Shown piece after piece: positions 9,425 through 53,344 of a stretch of 64,000 bases of DNA. Below the pieces are notes generated by a model, which saw nothing but the letters and a program-made list of their open reading frames with translations, made no database searches and was not told where the DNA came from. Source of the stretch: a virus (lineage: Duplodnaviria; Caudoviricetes). Position numbers and translations under genes: made by a program. The stretch covers positions 1-64,000 of the IMG/VR virus record IMGVR_UViG_3300021400_000049; one strand, 5' to 3'. Numbering within the stretch: the stretch's first letter is position 1; each line of letters opens with the position of its first letter.

Positions 9425-9561
9425 TTTACACTATAATTTAATCATGTTATAGTGTTATTACAGACAAGATATTACTTGTTCTGTTATGAAATCTTCTTTC
9501 ATATAGTGTGTGTTCGTTTACAGAAATAGCGGGAACTTTTGTTCTCGCTATTTTCTTTTTT
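9425..9561 (+). ncRNA. sRNA unit 1 (promoter, hairpins, terminator); antisense to a phage leader
   Basis: TTTACA-N17-TATAGT (9425-9453); no ORF; terminator ATAGCGGGAAC/GTTCTCGCTAT plus T tract; 9501-9511 is the exact complement of 51370-51380. Confidence 0.7.
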
Positions 9562-13203: not shown

Positions 13204-14140
13204 TAATACAGAATACTTAATGGACTCAATAGATATAATCAATCTGTTAAAAGTCGATTTAGCGCAACATAACATTGATTATCTGAAAGATATAAAAGAT
13301 GGTCCAAAGAATATACAGATTACTTGTCCTTATCATGCTAATGGTCAAGAGCATAAACCATCAGCAGGTATAAGAAAGTCAGATGGAGTATTTCATTGTT
13401 TTAGTTGTTGTGAAACTCACACTCTACCCGAAGTAATATCATACTGCTTCGGGTATGATGTGAGTAGTTATGGTAAAAGATGGTTAGATACTCATATACA
13501 AGATAGAGTCTACACAAATGGCATAGCCAGATATAAAGAGAGACAGAAAGAAGTAGTAACAAATAACTTTGTATCGGAAGAAGAACTTGATAGCTATAGA
13601 TGGACACATCCATATTGGGCAGAAAGAGGTATAGTAAATGAGAGAATCATTGAATTGTTCGATTTGGGATATGATAAGAAAACTCAATGCATCACATTTC
13701 CAGTTAGAGATAGACAAGGAAACTGTGAATTTGTTGCAAAGCGTTCGGTCAATACAAAGTTCTTCCAATACCCACAAGGAGTTTCAAAGCCATTGTATGG
13801 ACTCTATGAGCTATGCTATTTGGGCTTACAAGATGAAGAAATAATTGTATGTGAGTCAATGATAGATTGTATTCTATTATGGCAATCAGACCATTATGCA
13901 GTAGCATTGAATGGTCTAGGTAATGAAAGACAATTCAAACAATTAAGAGAATTACCATGTAAAAATCTGATATTAGCTACAGATAATGATAAAGCTGGCA
14001 GAGATGCAAGACAGAGGATAAGAAGTAAAGTAACTAATAAATGGATTTCAGAAATAGCATTTCCTAAAGGAATAAAAGATATAGGGGAATGTTCTAAAGA
14101 GCAGATAGATAATATTTTAGATTGGAGGAAATGGTTATGA
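13193..14140 (+). CDS. dnaG: DNA primase (CHC2 zinc finger plus TOPRIM)
   Basis: CPYH...FHCFSC; CESMIDC; ATDNDKAG. Confidence 0.9.
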   Translation: MIIDNTEYLMDSIDIINLLKVDLAQHNIDYLKDIKDGPKNIQITCPYHANGQEHKPSAGIRKSDGVFHCFSCCETHTLPEVISYCFGYDVSSYGKRWLDTHIQDRVYTNGIARYKERQKEVVTNNFVSEEELDSYRWTHPYWAERGIVNERIIELFDLGYDKKTQCITFPVRDRQGNCEFVAKRSVNTKFFQYPQGVSKPLYGLYELCYLGLQDEEIIVCESMIDCILLWQSDHYAVALNGLGNERQFKQLRELPCKNLILATDNDKAGRDARQRIRSKVTNKWISEIAFPKGIKDIGECSKEQIDNILDWRKWL

Positions 14141-14772
14141 ATGAAGAACGATTTTTCAGCATTATAGTGCCCGCTCATAATGCAGGGAAAACATTGGACA
14201 AGTGTCTAACGTCAATCAAGAATCAAAAGTTTACCAATTATGAATTGATAGTGGTGTGTGATTCTTGTGATGATAACACGGAAGAAATCGCTAGAAAGTA
14301 CACAAACAAAGTAGCAAAAGTAAATTATCATAGTGATGGTTCAGCAAGAAATGTCGGATTAGATATTGCTAAAGGTAGATGGGTGATGTTCATGGATGCA
14401 GATGATTGGTATTTACATGAATATTGCTTTAAAATTTTAGCAGACTGCTTGGGTAAACATAATGAGGATGTACTTGTCTACTCAATAATATGGAAACATA
14501 TAGGTTATGTTACTGCGAGAAGTAAGATGGGTACATTATATCCTCATTGTACTAATAAATGCTGGAAGAGAAGTTTTATAGGTAATACAAGATTTCCAGA
14601 TAAGTATGTAGCTAATGATGCAGGATTTCACGAATTGATGATGGCAAAGAATCCTGTAATCTATGAGTATGATACACCGATATATTACTATGATTATCTG
14701 AATGGACATAGTAAGTCAGATGAGATAGGTAGAACTGTCGAGAATACAAAAAAGTATTGGAGTACACATTGA
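14137..14772 (+). CDS. Glycosyltransferase family 2
   Basis: FSIIVPAHN, ARNVGLD, FMDADD. Confidence 0.85.
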   Translation: MNEERFFSIIVPAHNAGKTLDKCLTSIKNQKFTNYELIVVCDSCDDNTEEIARKYTNKVAKVNYHSDGSARNVGLDIAKGRWVMFMDADDWYLHEYCFKILADCLGKHNEDVLVYSIIWKHIGYVTARSKMGTLYPHCTNKCWKRSFIGNTRFPDKYVANDAGFHELMMAKNPVIYEYDTPIYYYDYLNGHSKSDEIGRTVENTKKYWSTH

Positions 14773-15395
14773 TGAGATTTAGCATAATAATTCCTGCTTA
14801 CAATTCAGCTAAATATATCGTAAAGGCATTAGAAAGCGTTAAAGCCCAGTCTTTTACAGATTATGAGTTGATTGTAGTTTGTGACTCATGTAAGGATAAT
14901 ACTGCTGAGATAGCTATGAGTTACGGTGCGAAAGTTTATATTGGTAATTTTCATAATGATGGATTATCCAGAAGCAAAGGATTAGATGTAGCTCAAGGTG
15001 AGTATGTTTTATTTATGGACGATGATGATTGGTGGCTACATGAGTATGTATTAGAGCAGTTAAATGAGGAGTTAACAAGATTAAAGGATGCTGATGTACT
15101 AGCATTTTCTTTTATATTTAAAGGTATAGGCTACGCATCACCAACGAAAAATCAAGGTAAGTTATGGGTAGCTGTGTGGAATAAATGTTGGAAACGTGAG
15201 TGTATAGGTAGCACAAGATTTCCTAAAATACATTCATGCAGTGATAGATACTTCCATGATGCTATGATGGAAAAGAAATTGAAAATTTACACATGGGATA
15301 TGCCTATGTATTATTACAACTATCTTAGAGAAGGTAGTATTTCTCAGAAAGACGGGAGAAAGGTGAGTGAATTGAAAAAATGTCTAAATATCTAA
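14772..15395 (+). CDS. Glycosyltransferase family 2 (paralog of previous)
   Basis: FSIIIPAYN, SRSKGLD, FMDDDD. Confidence 0.85.
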   Translation: MRFSIIIPAYNSAKYIVKALESVKAQSFTDYELIVVCDSCKDNTAEIAMSYGAKVYIGNFHNDGLSRSKGLDVAQGEYVLFMDDDDWWLHEYVLEQLNEELTRLKDADVLAFSFIFKGIGYASPTKNQGKLWVAVWNKCWKRECIGSTRFPKIHSCSDRYFHDAMMEKKLKIYTWDMPMYYYNYLREGSISQKDGRKVSELKKCLNI

Positions 15396-17735: not shown

Positions 17736-18025
17736 TTAGTTGTTCATGGTCAGAGCAACTAATCTAGTAGTATTATTTTTCATGGTATGATTAACGCTAC
17801 AAACAACTTATTTATGTCTACTTTGCTCTATTACATATCAGATAGAGCGGTAACCGTAAACTACATCTTGTGGTTAAGATGTTTTTGGATACACAAATGC
17901 AAAACACATTGGTCTAAATCGTTTTGTTGTTCAAGTACAACTCCTGACATAAATTGATTAGCTAAGTTGTAGGTGTCGAACTAAACCGCGACATGGTTTA
18001 TAAGCTAATACTAAAGGAGAATATT

Positions 18026-36992: not shown

Positions 36993-37208
36993 ATGAATAA
37001 AACTCAGTTAGTAAGAGAACATCTTTTAAAACATGGCAGTATTACTTCTTGGGATGCCATAAATCTTTATGGCGAAACAAGATTATCTGATGTAATATTA
37101 AAACTCAGACAAAAAGGCTGGGACATAAGAACTATTATGGTAGAATTTACAGATAGATATGGTAATGTTGGTACTTATGCAAATTATGTATATAAAGGAG
37201 ATAAGTAA
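36993..37208 (+). CDS. Winged-HTH protein
   Basis: HLLKHGSITSWDAINLYG.TRLS.VI.KLR..GW.I. Confidence 0.65.
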   Translation: MNKTQLVREHLLKHGSITSWDAINLYGETRLSDVILKLRQKGWDIRTIMVEFTDRYGNVGTYANYVYKGDK

Positions 37209-40888: not shown

Positions 40889-40963
40889 TTCCTGTTGATG
40901 TTTATTTATAGGTATATTACCTTATACTTGTAAACGAAAACATAGTTTTTGAAAGGAGAAATT

Positions 40964-43900
40964 ATGCAGGTATTATTTGACGAAAGGGATTATGAACCAT
41001 TAAAAGAAGGAGAGACTTACGAAGGCAAGTTTGTAATTATTACACCTGAGTTCTTCAAGCCAGAGTTTAGAAATGCAAAATATCAGTTGTTTCATGCAGA
41101 AGCAGGATTTGGATGTGATCCTAGTAAGATAGGTAATGCAGTGTTTGGTAAAGATTGTGAGGAGACTTACAGACAGGAGAGATACAATATTCTCGGTGTA
41201 GCTAAGGAGTCCGCAATTCGTGAGTGGGAAAGAACATACCACATGAGTAGAGAGGTTTTCTACAGAAAGGAGAATGATTGATGGAAGAATTTACAACAAC
41301 ATTTTGGCAAGATTTCACAATAGCTGACGCCTTCGGTGCGTCAGCTATCAAAGACACCTTTAAGAGAGCGTTTGAAGAATGGAAGTCAGACTACAGATAC
41401 CTTACTGATTTAGTAATGGTAGTAAATCATAAGTGCTGGCAGCATTATGAGGAAGGCAATACAGAGATTAGCCAGATTTATTCAGATTTATATTATAAGG
41501 CTGATGCTTATGCCTGCGAGAACTTAAAGGGTGAAGAGTTGAGTTACTATTTTAGGGTAACAGATTGAAAGGGAAATATTATGAAATCTGAAATTAAGTG
41601 GAGAGATAATCTTAAAAGTATAGGTACTAATATTCCTAGGGTTGTTCCTAATGAAATCTACATGGCTATGAGTTCTATCGAATTTTATACAAAGACAATC
41701 AAGGCATTAGAAAGAGTGGGATGGAAATACTCGGGACGAGATGGAATGATTACTGGTATACATAACGAAAGGGCTATACAGATAGATATTGTGGAACAAT
41801 ATAATGACCATATGTACTTAGTAAAGTTCTGGAAAGACGGCAGTGTACATCTATATTTTAGAGATGAATACCTTAAAAACAGATATGGAAGGAGAGTATT
41901 GATATGAGTAAACCATATAGCAGAGATTATGAATCGGAACTATTAGATTTAGTCAGAGAGAACGGAATAACAGATGAGGACTTAGTGTCCTCATTCCTGT
42001 GTTATTTCAGTTCAGATGATACCTGTGCTTGTCTTGAAGATGTGTGCAGAACCTATGATATAGAGTATGAGGAAGAATAACTTCCTGTTGATAGGATAGC
42101 TGAAATATGCTATCCTATTTTTGTAAACAAAAACACACAAATGTTTGAAAGGAGAATATTATGGCAGTAAGGATTATGAAGAGGTGTTTCTGCTGTGGCA
42201 GAGAATCATCATTGGAGATTACTGATGAGGTAAATAAGAGGTATGAGATGTATCTCAATGGAGTAGGATATATACAAGATATTCCACTACCAGCAGACCA
42301 GAGAGAATTTTTAAAGACAGGTATGTGTCTCAGTTGTCAGGAGTTAATCTTTGCAGATCCTGATGAAGAATAAATTCCTATTGATAAGGTAGCACCTTAG
42401 TGCTACCTTATTGTTGTAAACAAAAACACATTATGAAAGAGAGGTACCAAATGAAACGAGTTATTTATTTACCAGATGAGCTTAACGAGAATAAGCATAT
42501 CCTCAAAGAAGTCTATGAGGGACATGGTGTATACAGAAGATACACACCCTCAGGATATCCAGTACATCAAGAGTGGGCAATAGTAAGAGAAAGTGATGGC
42601 TTCACTATTGTTACAGAGTCCTATAATAGTCTTGACCGTGTAGATATGCTGGATGCTATTGATAACTACAAAGAAACAGGTAAATATGGTTTTACCTGCT
42701 TACAGACACACAAAGGTAAAGAGCATGGCTACTACAATGTACATAGAGGAGGTAATTTAAAGCTATGAGTTTTTGTGATTTCCATACAATGCAGACAAGG
42801 AGCGGTAAAGTATTCACCCCACTTTCTACAAATGATGTGGTAGATGTAATCAGAGATGAAATGGGTGATGAGATAGCTGATTACCTCGATGAGTGTTTTT
42901 CAGATACTGCCTTAGAACAAGATACTGCCTATACATTATTACAGGATGAGTTTGCAAGTTACGAGCAGGAGAACGAGAACTGGCATAACTTTGTAGATGA
43001 ACTGTCAGAAGAAATAGAGGCAGTTAGAAGGAAGATAGAGGATAACAAATTAACAAAAGCCAAAATATCCATAGAGCTATATAAAATATATGAAAAGATG
43101 AGAAAGGAACTTTAATATGGACGAATTACAACTTATGGTACAGGCATTAGCCGGTACAATCGAAGATAATACGGCAGAGCTTAGAAAGATGAAGTCAGCA
43201 GGTAAACAGGATACAAAGATGTATATCCATAAGTTAGGAGAGATTTCAGCTTATGAGGATGTACTTAATATGGTCATATGGAGAATCAATCAGCTTTCTA
43301 ATAAGTGAGGTGAATGATATGTGGTACTTAGTATTATTTATCCTCTTTTGTATATTCTTTCTTTAATAAGTTCCTGTTGAACTGGTATCTCCTACATGAT
43401 ATCCTATTCTTGTAAAGAAAACAAGAACACATATCTTGAAAGGAGATACCAAAATGACTAAAGAGGAAATTAAGCAGTACGAGAACAAGGAACCCATAGG
43501 TATATACGCACTCAGTAATTGGGGTGGCATAGAGATTTTAGATATTCTCTATGGTATTGATGATTATGTGGTAGTAAGATACTATGGTAAGTCCTATCAT
43601 AGAGTAAAGATTCACTATGGTGTAAACCATAGTTCATTCAGAATAGGCAGATTGACAATACGCCTTGATGAGTGTATGAGAGTGTGAGGTAAAACCATGA
43701 AAGAGTATATTATAGTAGGGGATACAAAGTCTTTTAAGGATTGTCTTATCACTGTAGTGAGGGGTGATAGAAATGCCGCAGAGAAAGTGTTGGAGCGTAT
43801 GCTATATGCTCCAACAGAAAATGACTATAAACTTATGGAAGGTCATAAGAATCTGAGAATCAAAGAGGTTAAAGAAAAAGACCAGTGGTGGAATGATCCG

Positions 43901-44170
43901 TTCTTAGCAAATTGAGAGGAGAAAGAGGATGCGAAAAATTAGTAAGAGTAAGTGGAAGAAGTGGTTATTGATGCATAGAGATTCAATACTTTAAAGGAGA
44001 AAGAAGATGAGTCAGTTAGGATATGAATGTTGTATATGCCATAAGATATTTACAGATTGGGGTAATGACCCATGGCCAGTAGTGAAAGATGATGATGCAA
44101 GGTGTTGTGACGACTGTAATAGTTCAGTGGTACTGCCTGCAAGATTAGCACAATTATTAAATAAGGAGGA
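40964..44170 (+). other. Early-region small ORFs, part 1 (40964-41281, 41278-41568, 41581-41907, 41904-42080, 42161-42373, 42451-42768, 42765-43115, 43117-43308, 43454-43687, 43697-43915)
   Basis: Short acidic hypothetical proteins with strong RBSs, arranged in promoter-headed cassettes. Confidence 0.65.
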
Positions 44171-44176
44171 TAATAA

Positions 44177-44437
44177 ATGAAGGATTTTGTAAATGATTTT
44201 GAGGTAAGAAAGGGAAAGTTAGATACTCTTGTAGCCAATGCTGGTTACAAGAGTTTTAGAGAGTTTGCCAAAGATACAGGAGTAACTGCCGCAAATCTAT
44301 ATTCAAATCTTCATGGTACATGGCATATGTCAATGAAAAGAATGTTTAAGGTAGCAAACACACTGAATGTGCCTATACTTCAGGTAATAGAGATTTTCTA
44401 TCCAGATGAGCTGGCAGAGAATCAGGCATTGTTCTAA
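44177..44437 (+). CDS. XRE/Cro-family HTH regulator
   Basis: SFREFAKDTGVTAANLYS...MKRMFKVANTLNVPI. Confidence 0.75.
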   Translation: MKDFVNDFEVRKGKLDTLVANAGYKSFREFAKDTGVTAANLYSNLHGTWHMSMKRMFKVANTLNVPILQVIEIFYPDELAENQALF

Positions 44438-44519
44438 AATGTTCCAGTTGTATTCAGCTACAGGATATATTACCTTATACTTGTAAACAAAAACAGTTCT
44501 ATTTGAAAGGAGAACCAAT

Positions 44520-47500
44520 ATGTTAGTAACATCAATAGAAATCAGAGAGTGGTTAGATAAACAGATTGAGGCCTATCACACATCCTTAGAGAAGTTGATA
44601 GTCAATGATGATGGAGATTACCTTAGTAACATCGGTGTTCAGGACAGAGGTATTCATCTCTGCTCAGATGCAGTAAGGTTTATTGCAGACAGACTTGGTA
44701 TTGACCTCTGTGTAACATTAAGAAAGAGGGATACGGAGAATCCGTATGAGATTTTCATTCTGTATAAGGGTGAGAAGTTCTTCGGAATTGAAACTGAGGA
44801 AGAGTATCAGGAGAAAGGGGCAGTGGTATAAACCACTGCTCTTTAAAGAGGATAATGCTATGATGAAGTTTGTAACATCCTGTATAGATGAAAAGACAGG
44901 ATATGAGATGGTTTTATCAGAAGTCAGCTATAATGTAGCTATGGATTGGCTACAAAGGCAGTGTGAGAAGTATTTCAAGGAGATATTTAGAACCGAGAAT
45001 AATGGTACAGATGATGTGTGGATATATGTAGGTACACCTAAGAAAGATGTAAATCCTATGACAGGAGAGGTAGATGTGTGGTATACAAATCAAGTTATAT
45101 TCCACTATGACGAGAGCAGAGGATATTTGATGCAGGAGTAAGATATGAATTTTGAGGATTTTTTACAGAACCTATACGGTATTTCAAGTATGTCCAATGA
45201 TTATGAAGAAAGGGTTGTAGTTAATACCCAAGAAGATGATTGGGTAGTAGACACTGCAATAGTTACAGATAGGAGCTGGACATATGAGACCGCAGTAATG
45301 AGTCCACATTTCAGAAATAATAAATGGATAATAGTCGGTAAAGCAGATACCGAAGAGGATGCAGTTAAAGTGCATGAACAATGGGTTGATATGATGAGAA
45401 ATGATCCTAGGGCATTATGGGATATATATGAGGAGAAAATATTTATACACGATTGATTATAAGCTACTGGAACTTAATATTCCAGTAGCTTTTATTTTAC
45501 CCATATGCTACCTTATATTTGTAAACAAGAACACATAGTTACGAAAGGAGACCACTATGATACAGATTGAGGTTAAGTCAGAGAATGTATTCGGAGATGT
45601 GAGATTTTCTTATTGCCAGGTAGAAGATATTCCAACGCACTTCGCAAGATTAAAGTTTGAAGGCTGGGATAATATACTATCAACCCATCTTGTAGATGAG
45701 TTTGGCAGACTACTTAATGAAGATGGACAGTTAGTGTGAAAGGAGACCATTATGAAAGTTTACAGAGATAAGGCAACAGGTAAGAAGTTATATCCCGTAT
45801 GCTCATGGGAAAGAAATCAGCATAAGCTCTATAATGCCATAGATAGGGCACATAATGCAGTTACCGATTTGTATGAAGACAAGTCGGCTACAATAGAGCA
45901 GATTGATAAGGCAGAAGCGTGGGTTCAAGAAGTAGAGAGGTTGACCAGTATATTCGATAGTCATGTAGCACCTAATGGTGTAGTTTATGCACTATGGGAA
46001 GATGGTCAGAAAATAAAGGACATCATATACGGTTATGATTGTAGGCATGACCAGCTTGAGGCAGAAAGGAGAATGTGATATGTGCCAATATCCATGTAGA
46101 AACTGTGTTTATTATAAAGAGTGCGGTGAAAGCACAAGAACAATGCCATGTAATGGCAGAATGACGAAGAGTCAGCAGAAAGGGCTAAAAGCAAGCCTGA
46201 TTGTAATGGATGAGTTTCCTTTAAAGACAAGAGAGGAACTAATAAGAGAAGGAGAAAGAGAACAGGCAAGAAGAGCCTTCTATGAGGATTGAAAGGAGAC
46301 CATTATGTGTAGAAACTGCGAGAACTGCCAATATTGTAAAGAGGACTTTGAATATGATGATTTTGGTAATACCTTCGATTACTGCAAGTGTGTACTCACC
46401 AATGAGCTGATTGATTGTTCAGAAGCAGAGCATTGTAAGGATTATACAGAGTAGTCCATAAAGTGTTAGGAATCGACTCCTAACACTTTTATTTTATTTT
46501 GATATAAAGTATCAACGAGCAGATAAAAACGTCAGGAAAGAGCAGGAAATGAGTTGAAATATTCCTGTTGTCAGGTATATACCTGTATGCTATCCTATAT
46601 TTGTAAACAAGAACAGAGAGTAAGTTTCATGGTGCCAAGTATATCTTCGCTATGGATGCTGAAATCGCCATATATGAAAGGAGAGAATATGATACTGAAT
46701 GATGGATTTTACCCGTCAAAAGAGAGCGGGGTTGTACTAGAAAGATTTGAAGATATGTGGACAAAACACTCGATGTCCGATAAGTATGCAAGGGATATTG
46801 TGACTACCAGCAATAGTAATATTCAGACCTACTCTGATGCCTTTATGTCAGAGATGGCAGGGGATGAGATATTCTTTGCAGACTGGATAAGATATAATGA
46901 GGGATTACTACCTTACATCAAGAAAGCCGCTGATACAGTGCGTTGGCTACATGAGAATGGATATACAGAGTACAAAGTCAATATGCAGTCCGGGATAATA
47001 AAATAAAGCGCCTGGATTAGATTTTTATCTTATAGTTGATAAATTGCACACATTGAAAGGAGAAAGTTAAAAATGGCAACAATGATTAAATATGGAACAA
47101 AAGCAGGAGAAGACCTCATACATGATATGAATTACAGACACCCTAAAGGAAATACCCTTTATGATGTGTACGGTAAAGTTTCTTCAAAGAAGGCGAAAAG
47201 TTGGGAGAAAATCAGAGATGATTGCAACTACCTCAAAGGTAGACGCCTTCATATTATAGGAGCATCAAGTTATGGGTATTCCTGCATATATGCTTATCCT
47301 ATATATGACCATAGAGATGAGAGCATTATATCCATGATGATTAGAAAGGAAACAAAGGCGAATACCTATGAGATGGAAGTGCCTATAGATGAATATGATA
47401 AGAGAATTATACACAAAGGAGAATAAGGAAGATGTTGATATATGATGTAAACCGATATTCAGAGGATGTATGTAAGTTACCTGATACCATAGTATTACCT

Positions 47501-49523
47501 GATGATTTAGAAAAGGACGATGTTGATGCCACAGTCAATGCCATAATAGAGTTTGTAGAGAAGATGTATGGCAGAAAACCGAGCGCATTTGGTTGTAGAG
47601 CAAATGGCCAGATTATAAGATACAGAGCATGAATCAAATAAGTTCCAGTTGAAAAGGTAGCACCTGAGTGCTACCTTTTTCTTGTAAACAAAAACATTTC
47701 TTGAAAGAGAGGACCTATTATGAAGTACATTACCGAAAACATTACAGAGATTGAAAAGCTGGCCGTATCTATGATGCTCTTTGCTACTTGCGGTGAAGAT
47801 GAAGATACAATGGCAAATGCCGAAGTATCAAAGACTTCCCCTAACACATTCCACATTGAATATGATGTAGCAAATCCTTTTAATGGAATATCCCTTACAG
47901 TAGAGATTCACCGAGAGAGCTATGCTAACGGACAATCGTCAGTATTCCACTACAACGTCATATCTAGTGCCTATGGTGATACCGGAGAGTTCACACTGAC
48001 AATCGAATAAGTTCCTGTTGATAGGATAGCACCTCTGTGCTATCCTATACTTGTAAATAAGAACACATATTGAAAGGAGAACCATTATGTTGATGATGTT
48101 AGAAGAAGTATTCCCTGGGCAGAATAGAATGAATGAATATCCTATGGGAGAAGAGCAAGAGTTCCAGAGCATGAAAGAGTTTATATCCTGGAACATAGAG
48201 CAGATTGACGAAATCCTGAAAGATGCTCCAGAGGAGCAGATAACAAAAGATAAGCTGACCAACGGTGAGTATTCAGTCTATGAAAAAGATGGCGTGGTGT
48301 ATGTGAGAGTGGAGGTGATAGCATGATTACAAGAGCAAGATTGGAAATGGTGAATGCCAATAACAAGAAAGTGTTTGGCAGAAGTATGTGGGGCTATTGT
48401 GAATTATCCGATTTAATAGTGAAGTTTTTCAGAATAATGCCTGATTATGTGGACCAAAGTAAATGTAACCTCAGGGTTTATGATGTGAGTCATTGATATT
48501 CCAGTTGATAAGGTACTACATATGTAGTACCTTATTCTTGTAAAGAAGAACACATACATTGAAAGGAGAACCAATTATGAGAGACATTGATATGAAATGG
48601 AGTACCGCAAGAGCTACATACGACCTTATAGTAGATGGAGAGTGGTATGCAGAGGGCAATTATGAACAGATGGATGATATGGCAAGAGCCATGAGATTAG
48701 CTGATATTGAAGAGGAAGAAGCCAGATGTTCTCAGCCTAGTGATGATTACTACGGTGATGCAGATGATTGGGATGAGTGCTGACTTATCCCATATAGAAA
48801 GGAAACCATTATGGACAAGATAGTTTTGAAACTGAAAGGCAAACTAATAAAGGCCGATGTGATAGATTTTTCAGACAGATTAAAGTACGGCGAGATGTTA
48901 ACCTATGAAGATGCAGATGATGATTGGGAGATATTCTCAGTAAAAGGAACAAAATTCTATGTAGCCTATCAGCAGTGTTCTGCCTACGATAGGGTGTGAA
49001 AGGAGACCGATATGAGTGAAAACATGGTTCTTATAATGATTGATGAGTGCGGAGATGAGCGGGAATATGACCGTTATACTGTAGGAGATGATTTAGATGA
49101 GGATTATCTCGAAATGTGGCAAGAAATGAAAATTTCCAAAGCCAGAGAAGATTATCCAGAAGCCCGTAGATTTTACTTTGAAGATAGGCGCAATTGGAAT
49201 AGCATGATAAATGCCATGATTAGAGATGATGAGGGATATGACCCTTGGGAAGATGAAGAGGTGCCAGTATGAATATCATAAAGCAGAATAAGAAAAGGCA
49301 GTTAGTAGAAGAATATGGACCATACATGAATAAGAGATATGCCATATATGACACAATGGGCATAATGGAAGTATGGTTCTCAGACAAACAAAAAGCGTTG
49401 TCCCATTGGGAGAAATATAAAAACGCGGAGACTTGGGCAGAAAAGAGAGAGCGGTATAAACAAGAATTATTAGCCACAATAGAAAGAGGTGGTCCAGAAT
49501 TAGATGAACTACCATTTATCTGA
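44520..49523 (+). other. Early-region small ORFs, part 2 (44520-44831, 44860-45141, 45145-45456, 45557-45739, 45752-46078, 46080-46292, 46305-46454, 46689-47006, 47073-47426, 47432-47632, 47720-48010, 48087-48326, 48577-48783, 48811-48999, 49012-49272, 49269-49523)
   Basis: Short hypothetical ORFs, most with AAAGGAG-(N)ACCA-ATG RBS. Confidence 0.65.
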
Positions 49524-49569
49524 GCATATATCAGCTCATTAAAAAGTTGGCGGGCGAAAAGACAACCTA

Positions 49570-49930
49570 ATCCATTCATAAATCTATCTATAGAACTAGG
49601 CAAATATAAACCATAGATTATAATACAAAAACAAAGCGGAACATAGAGGCCATGTAGAGATACATGACCTTTTAGTGTATACCATATACGACTCTGTAAA
49701 ATCAGAAAAGAGGGCGGTAAAAGAGTCCTGTTCATATACTCCATTTATTATACCAAATACTAATACCATATAAACCATATATAGAAACCATATAAATACC
49801 ATTCTTTAGCCATTTATGCCATTCGTGACATGACTTTATTTAGTCTGTATCTAGGGCCATTCAGTAGCCATCTAGACTCCTTTCACCTTCTCGCCATTTA
49901 GCCCACAATATAGCCAGCCATTCACCCGAC
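49570..49930. repeat. Non-coding tract of short (A/G)CCAT repeats
   Basis: Repeated ACCATA/GCCATT units, dense at 49740-49925. Confidence 0.5.
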
Positions 49931-50611: not shown

Positions 50612-51008
50612 TATACAATCCATTATTTAGCTCCGCCCATTATCTGAGCGGAGCTTTTCTTTTGCCCATTTATTACCTCTAGAGGTATATATTAATATAG
50701 AAGAAACGGAACCTAAAATATAAAAATCATTGACACCGCCTTCTTTTTAGATGTATTATAACCATGCAGAGAATAGTGAGGCGAGAGTGAAAACCATGAC
50801 CCCTAAAAGAGATTGAGATTGGGGTATGAAGGAGTAGCTAGGCCAAGCGAAAAACGGTTAAGCGAAAGAAACATGGGCTTACTGAAAAGAAACGATGGCT
50901 TACTGAGCAGAAACTGGCAGAAACGAACATTCAAATACAGGTGTCATTACTAGGCAGAGATATGGAATTTACATACCTCTGGTTTTGTGCGTCTGGAATC
51001 CATTCTTT

Positions 51009-51112
51009 TAGGCCCATCAACTCTTTGCCCATATTCCCATAGAGGCCCATTGTCTATTAGGCCCATTCCTCTATAGGCCCTTTGCTGACGTAGGCCATTG
51101 AAGCCCCTGGCC
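51009..51112. repeat. AGGCCC(AT) repeat tract
   Basis: About six AGGCC(C) copies plus related GCCC units in about 100 nt. Confidence 0.55.
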
Positions 51113-51246
51113 ACACACAGGTGGTGTGGTGGTATGTGAGCTTCGCTCACAGAGGATCTGCTTGCACACAATGTAATAGAATAAAGTGTTATTGTTTACA
51201 ATTAAATAATAAACAATGTTGTTGTTTACATTTTTTAAAATTGTAC

Positions 51247-51275
51247 TTGTAAACAATAACAACTTATGATAATAT
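51247..51275 (+). promoter_or_regulatory. sigma70-type promoter with TTGTAAAC/GTTTACA boxes upstream
   Basis: TTGTAA-N17-TAATAT with TG extension; AT-rich UP-like region. Confidence 0.6.
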
Positions 51276-51398
51276 GATATTGAGCTTCAATAAAGCGTGA
51301 GCTTTGAAGCGTGTTCTATCTGTACTTTAACAAACATAGTTAGCTACTAACTATCATATGGAAACGTAAACACACTATATCGAAACGAGGTAACGAAA

Positions 51399-52016
51399 AT
51401 GGAAAAAACAACTATTCTCAGTAACTACAAACTCGCACAAGCTACTTTTGACAACACTAATAAGCGTGTTGCGATGACTGACAAGGAGCTTGCAACGCTT
51501 AGAGCGATATGCAAAACTAAGACTTTCGGTCTTGTATCGTTAATTGACGATATAGACAACATTGCAACGTTCAATGGCGATTATGATTGCAAGCTTGCTC
51601 AGAGCGGTAACGCAAAAGAGCACACACTCGTGTCTATATGGAGTCGTAACGCTATTAAACACGTTACTAAAAAGAGTGACTATAGAGACTTTGGTGTACG
51701 TTTTCACGTTGATAAGCTTGCTCAGCTTTACAAAAATAAAGACTTTGCAAAGCTGATAGAAAATAGCAACGTGCAAGTGTATTCTCACAGAGACGGTCTT
51801 GAAATAAGATTTACGTTTAAGTCACTTGCTGACTGTCTCAAGTTTGTTGCTGATATAGACAACGCAACAAAAGAGACTCAAAGCAAGACTCAGACTCAAA
51901 AAGAGACAAAGTCTCAGAGCAAAGCAAAAGAGCAAAGCAAGACTCAGAGCAAAGCAAAAGAGACAAAGTCTCAGAGTAAAAGCAAGACTCTAAAAGAGAC
52001 TCAGAAAAAAGCGTAA
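51399..52016 (+). CDS. Proline-free 205-aa protein with basic QSK/KET low-complexity tail (putative immediate-early regulator)
   Basis: GAGG RBS; ORF has no CC dinucleotide; function inferred only. Confidence 0.75.
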   Translation: MEKTTILSNYKLAQATFDNTNKRVAMTDKELATLRAICKTKTFGLVSLIDDIDNIATFNGDYDCKLAQSGNAKEHTLVSIWSRNAIKHVTKKSDYRDFGVRFHVDKLAQLYKNKDFAKLIENSNVQVYSHRDGLEIRFTFKSLADCLKFVADIDNATKETQSKTQTQKETKSQSKAKEQSKTQSKAKETKSQSKSKTLKETQKKA

Positions 52017-52088
52017 ATGCTCATGATAGCAACATTTATAGTAGTGATAATATTATTCTTACTCTTACTTGCTTTTATCTTTTGCTGA
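52017..52088 (+). CDS. 23-aa hydrophobic membrane peptide (not in ORF track)
   Basis: ATG abuts previous TAA; MLMIATFIVVIILFLLLLAFIFC. Confidence 0.5.
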   Translation: MLMIATFIVVIILFLLLLAFIFC

Positions 52089-52101
52089 TAGCTTAAACAT
52101 T

Positions 52102-52135
52102 AAAGCACTAGCATTTTTTGCTAGTGCTTTTTTGT
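52102..52135 (+). terminator. Intrinsic terminator
   Basis: AAAGCACTAGC/GCTAGTGCTTT plus T tract. Confidence 0.8.
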
Positions 52136-52202
52136 TTGCATTAAAGCGTTACATACCACCCAGCATCTTTGTTAGCATATGCTAACACGATTGCTGAGTG
52201 AG

Positions 52203-52410
52203 GGGTCTTGCTCCCGTAGGTCAGCATTTTTTATAATGACCGTGTCTCACTTATAAAGCCCGTGGTCTTTCTCCCACAGGAGGCTGCTTTTTATAAAGAC
52301 CGTGTCACTTAGGTTTTATTTATAATGACCGTGCCACTCAGATTATTCTTTCCAGTAAGAGGCTTTCTGTCTAAAATACCTGGCCACATATAATCTAAAG
52401 ACCGTGAAAC
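52203..52410. repeat. TTATAAWGACCGTG direct repeats (candidate pac/terminase-binding site)
   Basis: Copies at 52231, 52251, 52291, 52320, 52395 (partial); two longer units spaced 60 bp. Confidence 0.6.
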
Positions 52411-52488
52411 ACTCAGCATCGGTCCAGGAACTTGCTACTGATTACATTTTAGTGTTATAGTATGTTTACAATAATAAGGAGAATAACT

Positions 52489-52857
52489 ATGTCACCAACA
52501 CCAATAACGATAGCTAGGACAATAGCAAATGCGCTGAACATGATATATGGCACACATATAGTAATAAATACGTCACAGTTCTTTGGCGGCGAAGGTAAAT
52601 TAGTACGAATGTATGTCATTAAAGACGCATTTTATTATGGCGGTAAAAGTGAGTATTCAGATAAAGAGCTATTCAAGACCGCCAGCGGAGTGTATGCGTG
52701 TTTGTACATGAGGGATATGCTTAATGCCTTCAAGGGAGAAGAGATTAAGGAGGATAATCAAGGTTATCTTAATGTTTTAGCTAAGAAGAATGGCAGAGCT
52801 AATATAGATTACATGGTGAAAACTTATTTAGGAGGAAAGGAAAATGGCAACGATTAA
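52489..52857 (+). CDS. Hypothetical protein upstream of terminase
   Basis: AAGGAG RBS; TGTTATAGT promoter upstream. Confidence 0.6.
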   Translation: MSPTPITIARTIANALNMIYGTHIVINTSQFFGGEGKLVRMYVIKDAFYYGGKSEYSDKELFKTASGVYACLYMRDMLNAFKGEEIKEDNQGYLNVLAKKNGRANIDYMVKTYLGGKENGND

Positions 52858-53344
52858 CTCACAGATACCTGAGGATGCTTCGCCCAGAACACTGGATAAA
52901 TTGCTTACAGGAACTTGCATTACTCACGATGGCTCAAGAATCTCACCTAAACAGGATAAGTTTATTAACCTGTATATCAAATACTCTGATCCTGCTCAGG
53001 CTGCGGAAGAAGCAGGATACATGGTTAGGAATACTAGAAAAGACAAGAGAGCCGCATATGCCAGAAAAGGCAAAGAGTTGCTTAGAGATGATGTTATAAG
53101 GAATGAAATTGCGGCTAGAATGGATGATATTAGAGGAGCTGAGATTGCTGACGCTACGGAAGTTCTAGTCTATCTTACAAGGGTTATGAGAGGAGAAGTT
53201 AAAGACCAGTTTGGAATTGACGCTTCGTTGCAGGAAAGAACTGCGGCGGCTAAAGAGCTTAACAGAAGGCTCAGAGAGCTTGAACAGGATAAAGAGATGG
53301 GTGGAACTGGTAAAGAAGTACACCTCATATTGAGGAGAGAGTGA
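52844..53344 (+). CDS. terS: Terminase small subunit
   Basis: KQDKFINLYI...QAAEEAGY, IADATEVLVYLTRVMRGE, RTAAAKEL. Confidence 0.85.
   Translation: MATINSQIPEDASPRTLDKLLTGTCITHDGSRISPKQDKFINLYIKYSDPAQAAEEAGYMVRNTRKDKRAAYARKGKELLRDDVIRNEIAARMDDIRGAEIADATEVLVYLTRVMRGEVKDQFGIDASLQERTAAAKELNRRLRELEQDKEMGGTGKEVHLILRRE

What the first reader, a model, noticed from the sequence alone, without database searches (positions are those of the whole stretch)
51113..52155. A 1,043-nt island with no CC dinucleotide holding a self-contained two-gene operon
Seen (checked by eye): no CC on the + strand from 51113 to 52155. Only about 10 GG occur after 51160, six forced by Gly/Trp codons and one by the SD. The 205-aa protein has no Pro; the 23-aa peptide gene and the terminator stem avoid CC/GG; CG is common; both edges are sharp. 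Inference: strong selection to keep this operon free of a CC/GG-linked mark or target. Options are a phage-installed DNA modification that would impede host RNA polymerase on incoming DNA, or host restriction sites/PAMs (NGG, CCN) on the first-exposed DNA.
Basis: partly seen in the sequence, partly recalled or inferred. Interest (0 to 1): 0.9.

Follow-up and report, generated by a model that had tools for sequence, protein, structure and literature searches.

The report
CC-free regulator cassette in gut phage
A 1-kb self-contained gene cassette in a 74-kb virus of gut bacteria has been purged of the DNA letter pairs CC and GG, to the point of encoding proteins without proline, and its relatives keep it that way. 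This points to an unidentified CC/GG-reading mark or weapon that this one cassette must stay invisible to.

Summary
Window 51113-52155 has no CC where 30 are expected, and the next-longest CC-free run in the 74.4-kb phage genome is 323 nt. GG is at its codon-level minimum. The zone is the genome-wide extreme for CC, GG and GC.

The CC-free state holds in 10 of the 11 homologous cassettes examined (about 45-88% protein identity), including non-homologous leader variants and extra inserted ORFs. Four more distant phages carry similar islands at the same locus, upstream of the terminase genes. One type has neither CC nor GG across most of 1 kb, and its protein has no Pro, Gly or Trp. One divergent homologue shows no depletion and serves as a natural control.

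So purifying selection against the duplex CC/GG step is well supported. The agent is not identified.

The cargo is a protein with a MotA-C-terminal-domain-like "double-wing" fold and a basic tail. Its gene has a sigma-A-type promoter carrying repeated boxes that recur at 10 early promoter cassettes and at the late promoter. It is therefore probably a transcription regulator.

My best guess, at about 35%, is a starter or regulator cassette kept free of the phage's own context-specific DNA hypermodification. The phage has three TAGT glycosyltransferases and a ParB-like partner, but no CC-specific writer was found. Avoidance of a host PAM or nuclease site is the main rival.

The scan had already flagged this same stretch once, in an overlapping window.

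The parts
50980..51112 (+). Left border: CC-dense tract with repeated GGCCCAT-type motifs
   Evidence: The motif block is conserved in the aligned relatives that reach this far upstream, and the last CC before the island lies here.
51111..51150 (+). Two short border hairpins (CCACAC..GTGTGG, and GTGAGC-TTC-GCTCAC). This tract holds 4 of the island's 15 GG; a fifth lies just downstream at 51154.
   Evidence: Read from the sequence; GG positions. Function not tested.
51113..52155 (.). CC-free, GG-minimised zone
51189..51265 (.). Four copies of the TTGTAAACAA-type box (one on +, two or three inverted) around the promoter; putative operator
   Evidence: The same box sits just after the -10 element of 10 early cassettes and, inverted, at the late promoter.
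51247..51275 (+). Sigma-A-type promoter: TTGTAA, 17-nt spacer with TG at -15/-14, TAATAT
   Evidence: Read. The consensus scan picks an overlapping site at 51250-51278. A consensus match only.
51399..52016 (+). 205-aa protein: MotA-CTD/YjbR-like double-wing fold (weak match) plus a K/S/T/Q-rich basic tail; 0 Pro
   Evidence: No Pfam, PHROG or PADLOC hit. 17 homologues found.
52017..52088 (+). 23-aa hydrophobic peptide ORF abutting the upstream stop codon (TAA-ATG)
   Evidence: A 20-30 aa hydrophobic ORF follows the gene in every homologue whose downstream DNA was read, including the non-depleted L243.
52102..52140 (+). Intrinsic terminator: 12-bp stem without CC or GG, followed by a T-run
52150..52186 (+). 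Right border: ACCACCC motif (first CC at 52156), then the 16-bp palindrome GTTAGCATATGCTAAC
   Evidence: In the eight relatives whose downstream DNA was read as far as the border, the CC-free zone ends at a CCACC-type motif; L002 has one stray CC about 90 nt before it.
52225..52410 (+). Four exact GACCGTG copies in TATAAWGACCGTG-type repeats, between the island and the late promoter
   Evidence: 6 matches in the window against 1.2 expected, 4 of them here. They could be activator sites or a pac element; not tested.
52432..52471 (+). Late-operon promoter TTGCTA-18-TATAGT (with TG), with an inverted TTGTAAAC box at its start site
   Evidence: conserved in relatives

Best explanation
SHOWN. The zone is an insulated, autonomous cassette: border hairpins, a sigma-A-type promoter with operator boxes, a 205-aa gene, a 23-aa peptide gene and a terminator. 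Purifying selection has removed the duplex CC/GG step from it wherever function allows: non-coding DNA, synonymous sites, codon junctions, and even the amino-acid content.

INFERRED, about 60%. The constraint acts on the DNA rather than on the mRNA. It keeps the cassette invisible to some agent that reads CC/GG.

INFERRED, most likely agent, about 35%. The agent is the phage's own post-replicative, context-specific glycosyl hypermodification. The cassette would be the one transcription unit that stays chemically ordinary DNA. Host sigma-A RNA polymerase and the cassette's own regulator could then always read it, including on freshly injected, fully modified DNA.

INFERRED, function of the product. 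The product is a MotA-CTD-like double-wing DNA-binding protein. It would act on TTGTAAACAA boxes at its own promoter, at the 10 early cassettes whose promoter elements contain conserved CC (TTCCWG and TAYCYT), and at the late promoter.
For: Selection.
- CC is 0 against 30 expected, and GG is at its codon minimum.
- The state is kept in L001-L009 and L242 despite 12-55% protein divergence, mosaic non-homologous leaders and extra inserted ORFs.
- Single stray CCs occur in single lineages only.
- 48 control ORFs of the same phage have CC observed/expected of at least 0.53, median 0.89.
- The homologue L243 has the same operon layout but CC 12/17, GG 45/42, 13 Gly and 1 Pro. The protein family itself therefore does not require the depletion.

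DNA-level and symmetric.
- In L244/L245 there is no CC across 1056 nt and no GG across most of it. The L016-family protein has no Pro, Gly or Trp, and its ribosome-binding site is a GG-less GAAAGTGAG.
- The zone includes about 130 nt upstream of the promoter's -35 element and DNA beyond the terminator.

Locus property.
- There is one island per genome, always upstream of terS/terL, in W-type, L016, L024, L026 and L101 phages.

Modification context.
- The phage has 3 TAGT, 2 GT2 and a ParB-like 169-aa partner inside the replication module.
- All three complete island-bearing genomes carry TAGT.
- Published phage post-replicative pathways are specific at the dinucleotide level and co-occur with glycosyltransferases and ParB: NTC or NTG for the thymine dioxygenases in PMC13229309, and GpC in the abstract of PMC8256090.

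Regulator.
- Two independent models, W at pLDDT 63 and L016 at 82, both hit MotA. BFVD Foldseek gave E 0.014 and 0.006. VIA-align gave Z 4.8 and 5.9 to 6k4y_M. YjbR (2fki) was the top VIA-align hit for the L016 model at Z 6.2.
- Boxes sit at the gene's own promoter, the early cassettes and the late promoter.
Against: - No enzyme that could write a mark on C in a CC context was found. There was no C5-methylase, TET/JBP or thymidylate-synthase homologue.
- The known phage specificities are GpC, NTC and NTG, not CC.
- Two relatives with TAGT (G006, G009) have no island.
- No gene is shared only by island-bearing genomes.
- From my own knowledge, T4's fully glucosylated DNA is transcribed well by host polymerase, so a block by glycans is an assumption.
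- Ten GG, which are CC on the template strand, remain in the window's cassette.
- The fold matches lie below the level at which VIA-align matches are reliable (notes).
- No modification, expression or genome-end data exist.
Confidence: 0.35

Rival explanations
1. Avoidance of a host target. The cassette is kept free of a host immune determinant made of CC/GG alone. Candidates are CRISPR PAMs (NGG for type II-A; CC or CCN for some type I systems) or a frequent CC-reading nickase or nuclease. The cassette could then be neither sampled nor cut before its product acts.
For: - The avoided unit is exactly a strand-symmetric duplex dinucleotide, as a PAM is.
- Each stray CC is confined to a single lineage.
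- Genome-wide PAM depletion in phages is documented (PMC4246573, PMC12174588).
- The cassette has its own promoter and terminator and sits at the end of the early-gene block next to the packaging genes.
- A homologue without depletion (L243) fits a host that lacks the agent.
Against: - Protecting 1.4% of a genome that carries about 1,500 CC and 3,000 GG elsewhere gives little benefit, unless this cassette is uniquely critical or enters the cell first. Neither is shown.
- The cargo looks like a DNA-binding regulator, not a known anti-defence protein.
- No spacer-like hits were found.
- Genome ends are unknown.
Confidence: 0.25
2. An RNA-level constraint. The transcript must lack CC and GG. Possible reasons are escape from a dinucleotide-specific RNA-cleaving or RNA-modifying enzyme, no sequestration of the ribosome-binding site, or no internal ribosome-binding-site-like sequences.
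For: - All well-supported island genes lie on the strand that is strictly CC-free.
- Codon usage in the island differs from the phage's and favours C-ending two-fold codons, CGT, CTT, ACT and GGT. From my own knowledge this resembles the usage of highly expressed Firmicutes genes.
Against: - About 130 nt upstream of the predicted -35 element, and up to about 200 nt beyond the terminator, are also CC-free.
- A strong upstream promoter at 50730-50759 would give read-through RNA that carries the CC-rich border.
- In L026 the longest ORF lies on the opposite strand, yet CC is still absent from the terminase-sense strand. That ORF is preceded by the same GG-less GAAAGTGAG string, but it has no homologues that would confirm it as a gene.
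- L243 has the same operon and is not depleted.
Confidence: 0.12
3. Mutational origin. A context-specific cytosine deaminase or similar damage acts on this segment, for example because it is often single-stranded, and erodes CC on both strands.
For: - CT and TT are mildly enriched in the window's island.
- The island lacks the genome's G>C skew and its CpG suppression, so it is shaped by different forces.
Against: - Removal is essentially complete next to sharp, CC-dense borders.
- Conserved Gly and Trp codons are retained while every dispensable GG is removed.
- CT enrichment is not shared by the other islands.
- No such enzyme is known to me for these hosts.
Confidence: 0.08
4. Inherited composition. 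The cassette is a mobile module from a donor whose DNA is intrinsically poor in CC/GG, and it has simply kept that signature.
For: - The dinucleotide signature and codon usage are foreign to the phage.
- Leaders are mosaic and extra ORFs are inserted, which indicates recombination.
Against: - Synonymous sites are saturated between the most distant members (45-52% protein identity), yet CC stays at 0-1.
- No donor context was found: every homologue on a contig long enough to show its neighbours lies at this same phage locus.
Confidence: 0.05

Closest known systems
Target-free leading regions of T5 and T7: the T5 first-step-transfer DNA lacks EcoRI sites, and T7 gene 0.3 (Ocr) enters first (from my own knowledge, not checked here)
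   Same: A small, early, host-polymerase-read segment that lacks the target of a DNA-level threat while the rest of the genome carries it.
   Different: Here the avoided unit is a dinucleotide rather than a 6-bp site, and the avoidance reaches amino-acid composition. A terminal, first-injected position is not shown, and the cargo looks like a regulator rather than an anti-restriction protein.
Genome-wide PAM or restriction-site depletion in phages (PMC4246573; PMC12174588)
   Same: Selection against a very short duplex motif, including CC for type I-F and GG-containing PAMs.
   Different: The published cases are modest, genome-wide shifts. This one is complete, confined to about 1 kb, and occurs once per genome.
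T4 MotA, activator of middle transcription (PDB 5jlt, 6k4y)
   Same: A double-wing-like alpha/beta fold in both island protein types, a phage gene with its own host-type promoter, and a short box repeated at a set of phage promoters.
   Different: There is no sequence similarity and no MotA Pfam hit. The N-terminal sigma-binding domain and an AsiA partner were not seen. The box lies after the -10 element, not at -30. The protein also has a long basic tail.
Post-replicative, dinucleotide-specific phage hypermodification (5mYOX/TET with ParB and glycosyltransferases; PMC13229309, PMC8256090, bioRxiv 10.1101/2023.12.21.572611)
   Same: TAGT glycosyltransferases and a ParB-like partner sit in the replication module. 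The published pathways write marks in 2-nt contexts.
   Different: No dioxygenase or methylase was detected, and no known pathway targets a CC context. A modification-free island has not been described in the papers I read.

Membership tests
T4 MotA family | Sequence membership (Pfam MotA domains) | tested here: not met
   No Pfam or PHROG hit for the 205-aa protein or its analogues.
T4 MotA family | C-terminal double-wing DNA-binding fold | tested here: inconclusive
   BFVD Foldseek hits to MotA at E 0.014 (W model) and 0.006-0.015 (L016 model). VIA-align Z 4.5-5.9 to 5jlt_A and 6k4y_M, with 99-105 residues aligned. All are below the reliable range.
T4 MotA family | Sigma-binding N-terminal domain and an AsiA-like co-factor | not tested
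   No search for AsiA was made. The aligned part of the model covers only the MotA C-terminal domain.
Phage 5mYOX/ParB/glycosyltransferase hypermodification pathway | DNA glycosyltransferase(s) | tested here: met
   PF20691 (TAGT) three times, E 1.8e-22 to 6.4e-34; PF00535 twice.
Phage 5mYOX/ParB/glycosyltransferase hypermodification pathway | ParB-like activator | tested here: inconclusive
   The 169-aa ORF 23711-24220 hits phrog_620 (ParB-like) at E 2.6e-7, C-terminal part only. It has no Pfam hit.
Phage 5mYOX/ParB/glycosyltransferase hypermodification pathway | TET/JBP-type dioxygenase, or a C5-methylase or thymidylate-synthase homologue, to supply the hydroxyl acceptor | tested here: not met
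   PF12851, PF00145 and PF00303 gave no candidate in the whole genome. The paper notes that many divergent 5mYOX enzymes escape PF12851.
PAM or restriction-site avoidance | Depletion of the motif on both strands beyond codon and composition effects | tested here: met
PAM or restriction-site avoidance | A host system whose determinant is CC/GG, with spacers against this phage | tested here: inconclusive
   The host is inferred only as Lachnospiraceae, from the endolysin. No spacer-like hit was found in a sample of 401 genomes.
First-injected leading region (T5 FST / T7-like) | Position at the physical end that enters the cell first | not testable with these tools
   The assembly is circular with a 107-bp overlap inside a tail gene, and all runs are held as contigs only.
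acr-aca anti-CRISPR operon | A small Acr gene plus an HTH Aca repressor that acts on inverted repeats in the promoter | tested here: inconclusive
   Promoter repeats are present. No HTH or Aca family hit was found, and the cargo is a 150-205 aa basic protein.

The most novel reading that the evidence does not exclude
A dinucleotide-level DNA mark or reader for CC/GG operates in these Lachnospiraceae phage-host systems. It could be a new phage glycosyl hypermodification or a new host nuclease or PAM system. The phage divides its chromosome into marked bulk DNA and a single unmarked master-regulator cassette. That would amount to an epigenetic-style start switch whose footprint is strong enough to strip proline, glycine and tryptophan from the encoded proteins.
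Probability: 0.3. Interest if true: 0.9.

Novelty: new variant of a known kind. Interest (0 to 1): 0.8.

Why it matters
Short-motif avoidance is normally a weak, genome-wide statistic. Here it is absolute and local, it is conserved across diverged phages, and it dictates amino-acid content. That makes it a clean, falsifiable footprint of a CC/GG-reading agent that has not been described.

It gives a concrete test bed for an open question raised in the 2026 paper on phage thymine dioxygenases (PMC13229309): why do phages use post-replicative, context-specific hypermodification? One possible answer is that it lets them exempt chosen genes by sequence alone.

If the agent is instead a host system, the island marks the gene the phage can least afford to have targeted.

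Either way, a search for kb-scale dinucleotide-free islands is a simple new way to find hidden marks and their exempted genes in uncultured phages.

Tried and rejected
- Chi-like protection. No GC-containing 5-7-mer is shared, strand-biased and common to the non-homologous islands. AGCGG, GCGCGTG and GAAGCGG are not enriched.
- General restriction-site avoidance. Rejected. The L026 island is rich in GCGC and CGCG, and the window's island visibly carries GATC, AGCT, ACGT and GTAC (my reading; not counted against expectation).
- CRISPR spacers. Window 44-64 kb against 401 Lachnospiraceae genomes gave only prophage-gene homology and recurrent short conserved segments.
- Read data. Only Logan contigs were available. 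They cover the island and both flanks in relatives, so no termini, depth or modification inference is possible. No RNA holder was listed.
- Link to TAGT. Present in 3 of 3 complete island-bearing genomes but also in 2 of 5 without an island. Too few genomes to test.
- Comparative gene content. No gene is confined to island-bearing genomes.
- Cargo annotation. Pfam, PHROGs and PADLOC gave nothing above noise for the cargo proteins, Rfam gave nothing for the window's island region, and the ESM Atlas gave nothing for the 205-aa protein.
- Profile search of 1.84 billion proteins. Only 4 representatives were found, so the family is tiny.
- Sequence homology between the W-type and L016 or L026 proteins. 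Not detectable by hhalign.
- The L026 minus-strand ORF has no homologues, so the argument that the constraint follows the genome strand rather than the gene strand stays weak.
- Packaging type. The nearest cultured TerL relatives (Blautia phage Montmirail, C. perfringens phiCP39-O group, about 46% identity) did not settle whether packaging is pac or cos.

Full report
WHAT THE WINDOW IS

The window is 64 kb of a 74,461-nt contig. A 107-bp terminal overlap lies inside a tail gene, so the assembly is circular. Nearly all genes are on the + strand. The layout is as follows.
- Lysis and replication genes lie at 2-40 kb: helicase, DnaD/DnaC/DnaB-like proteins, primase, SSB, a split family-A polymerase, clamp, clamp loader and RecA.
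- A block of small early genes lies at 40.9-50.6 kb.
- The island comes next.
- TerS (52844-53344), TerL, portal and the structural genes follow.

The portal and TerL are 38-47% identical to those of Clostridium and Blautia siphophages. Endolysin relatives are almost all from Lachnospiraceae genomes. Related contigs come from animal-gut and ruminant-gut metagenomes.

THE OBSERVATION

No CC occurs between 51113 and 52155, and the next-longest CC-free run in the genome is 323 nt. The island has more C than its surroundings: 17% against 14%, with no G>C skew. Composition alone predicts 30 CC, and none of 20,000 shuffles fell below 15.

GG is 15 against 36 expected. Four lie in the border hairpins and a fifth just beyond at 51154. 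Of the other ten, six are Gly or Trp codons and one is in the Shine-Dalgarno sequence.

With the protein held fixed and codons drawn from the phage's own usage, CC should be 6.9 (P of zero = 0.002) and GG 17.5. The observed 8 GG is the lowest value any resample reached. Permuting the island's own codons among synonymous positions still predicts 4.1 junction CC (P of zero = 0.003).

Forty-eight control ORFs from the same phage have CC observed/expected of at least 0.53. In 1-kb windows the island is the genome extreme for CC, GG, AT (all low) and GC (high).

CONSERVATION

The 205-aa protein has 17 homologues in metagenomes. A profile search of 1.84 billion representatives found only four clusters. 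I fetched DNA for eleven of these homologues.

In L001-L009 and L242 (protein identity to the window's copy from 88% down to about 45%) the CC-free state holds. Runs are 600-1,270 nt with at most one stray CC, each confined to one lineage. It holds across two non-homologous leader and promoter types. It also holds across extra ORFs inserted behind the terminator in L005 and L006.

All these proteins have 0 Pro, 5-8 Gly and 1 Trp. GG recurs at the same conserved Gly and Trp codons.

One divergent homologue, L243, has the same two-gene layout, including the hydrophobic peptide. It is not depleted: CC 12 against 17 expected, GG 45 against 42, with 13 Gly, 1 Pro and an acidic tail. The protein family therefore tolerates Pro, Gly, CC and GG. 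The depletion is imposed at the nucleotide level in a subset of phages.

A PROPERTY OF THE LOCUS

Among about 110 related phage contigs fetched through TerL, four further islands appeared. All lie upstream of the packaging genes.
- L016: 1,057 nt, CC 0 against 19 expected, GG 6 against 23.
- L024: about 1 kb.
- L026: 1,812 nt with 340 C and no CC, against 64 expected.
- L101: about 840 nt.

In a relative of L016 there is no CC across 1056 nt and no GG across most of it. That protein family (four members, 67-100% identical) contains no Pro, Gly or Trp, and its ribosome-binding site is a GG-less GAAAGTGAG.

Each island-bearing genome has exactly one island. Five complete relatives have none. No contig showed a GG-poor zone without a CC-poor one on the terminase-sense strand.

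The shared signature is CC near 0, GG at 0.1-0.5 of expectation, GC at 1.4-2.2 times expectation, and G roughly equal to C.

I read this as avoidance of the duplex CC/GG step. The surplus of GG over CC in the window's type is explained by Gly and Trp codons and the ribosome-binding site.

WHAT THE CASSETTE ENCODES

The AlphaFold model of the 205-aa protein is of moderate quality (pLDDT 63). The model of the L016 protein is good (pLDDT 82). The two have the same order of helices and strands, followed by a disordered basic tail.

Both models retrieve T4-type MotA activators from the viral structure library, at E 0.014 and 0.006-0.015. By VIA-align they hit the MotA C-terminal domain at Z 4.5-5.9. 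The L016 model also hits YjbR and DUF419 proteins at Z 5.0-6.2. From my own knowledge these share the double-wing DNA-binding fold. The scores are below the reliable range, so this is a lead and not a membership call.

Independent support comes from DNA. The TTGTAAACAA box occurs once forward and two or three times inverted around the cassette's promoter. It also sits immediately after the -10 element in 10 early cassettes of the form TTCCWG-TTGAYA-17 nt-TAYCYT. It occurs inverted at the start of the late promoter.

These early cassettes exist only in the two genomes that also carry the 205-aa gene. The L016 type has a perfect TTGACA-17-TATAAT promoter preceded by three boxes spaced 30 nt apart. 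Those boxes occur nowhere else in that genome.

I infer an autoregulated transcription factor. The role of the 23-aa hydrophobic peptide is unknown.

WHICH AGENT

The phage is very likely hypermodified. It has three TET-associated glycosyltransferases, a 169-aa partner that hits a ParB-like PHROG, and two GT2 enzymes, all inside the replication module.

Published phage pathways of this kind act after replication and in dinucleotide contexts. Examples are NTC or NTG for thymine dioxygenases, some of which need a ParB-like activator (PMC13229309).

A context-specific mark would explain three things that a host PAM model explains poorly. First, only one transcription unit is exempt. Second, its promoter, operator and terminator are included. 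Third, it encodes the regulator of promoters that themselves carry conserved CC.

However, I found no methylase, dioxygenase or thymidylate-synthase homologue. Two TAGT-bearing relatives lack an island. No gene tracks the island.

The host-target model fits the dinucleotide nature and the symmetry of the avoidance, but it lacks a rationale for the locality. Evidence for that rationale, a terminal position or an anti-defence function, could not be obtained.

An RNA-level cause is weakened by three points: the CC-free DNA outside the predicted transcript, the L026 arrangement, and L243. A purely mutational or inherited origin is weakened by the sharp borders, by saturation of synonymous sites, and by retention of only the functionally required GG.

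VERDICT

Selection against CC/GG is well supported. The mechanism remains open. My odds are about 35% phage self-modification exemption, 25% host-target avoidance, 12% RNA level, 8% mutational and 5% inherited, with the remainder for something not considered.

I know of no described precedent for a kb-scale, complete, conserved dinucleotide exclusion in a phage. The two PAM-depletion papers I consulted report only genome-wide shifts.

Noticed in passing
window 40889-48560: Ten early promoter cassettes with fixed geometry: TTCCWG, TTGAYA, a 17-nt spacer, TAYCYT, about 4 nt, then TTGTAAA(C/G)AARAACA and a strong ribosome-binding site. In several, the spacer and the -10 element form an inverted repeat, for example AGGTAGCAC..GTGCTACCT. 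Six to nine copies occur in relative G001 and none in more distant relatives.
   Followed up: partly
window 21980-25070 and 14122-15395: Three TAGT glycosyltransferases with a 169-aa ParB-like partner (phrog_620, E 2.6e-7; a weak dGTPase hit in PADLOC), plus two GT2 enzymes beside the primase. No base-hydroxylating or methylating enzyme was detected anywhere in the genome. The TAGT genes, the 169-aa ORF and a 71-aa ORF (36993-37208) co-occur in G001, G003 and G006.
   Followed up: partly
window 17993-21983: The family-A DNA polymerase is split into two ORFs (17993-19576 and 20405-21283). One GIY-YIG homing-endonuclease gene (19607-20326) lies between them and a second (21321-21983) lies just after the second part.
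   Followed up: no
window 9486-9525 versus 51356-51400: An ORF-less region 42 kb away carries an exact 11-nt antisense match to the cassette's leader (ACACACTATAT). The match extends through a flanking GTAAAC and GAAA with a 2-nt bulge. An 11-nt match arises by chance in 1.8% of random 466-nt genome segments.
   Followed up: partly
window 52225-52410: Four GACCGTG copies within TATAAWGACCGTG-type repeats lie between the island and the late promoter. They are conserved in relatives and could be late-activator sites or a pac element.
   Followed up: no
L026 864-2675: The largest island: 1.8 kb with 340 C and no CC. It is very rich in GCGC and CGCG, with CG and GC at about twice expectation. It carries five or six ACACGGAT-type repeats and several perfect short palindromes, and has few convincing ORFs.
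   Followed up: partly
L243 1-1000: A divergent homologue of the 205-aa gene with the same downstream hydrophobic peptide but normal CC/GG content, 13 Gly and an acidic tail. Its upstream region has four TTTATAAAGTA-type boxes in place of the TTGTAAACA boxes.
   Followed up: partly
window 47407-48262 and 49220-49744: A few ORFs lie on the minus strand, coinciding with local drops in GC skew. The 174-aa ORF is conserved in G001. They have no family hits.
   Followed up: no
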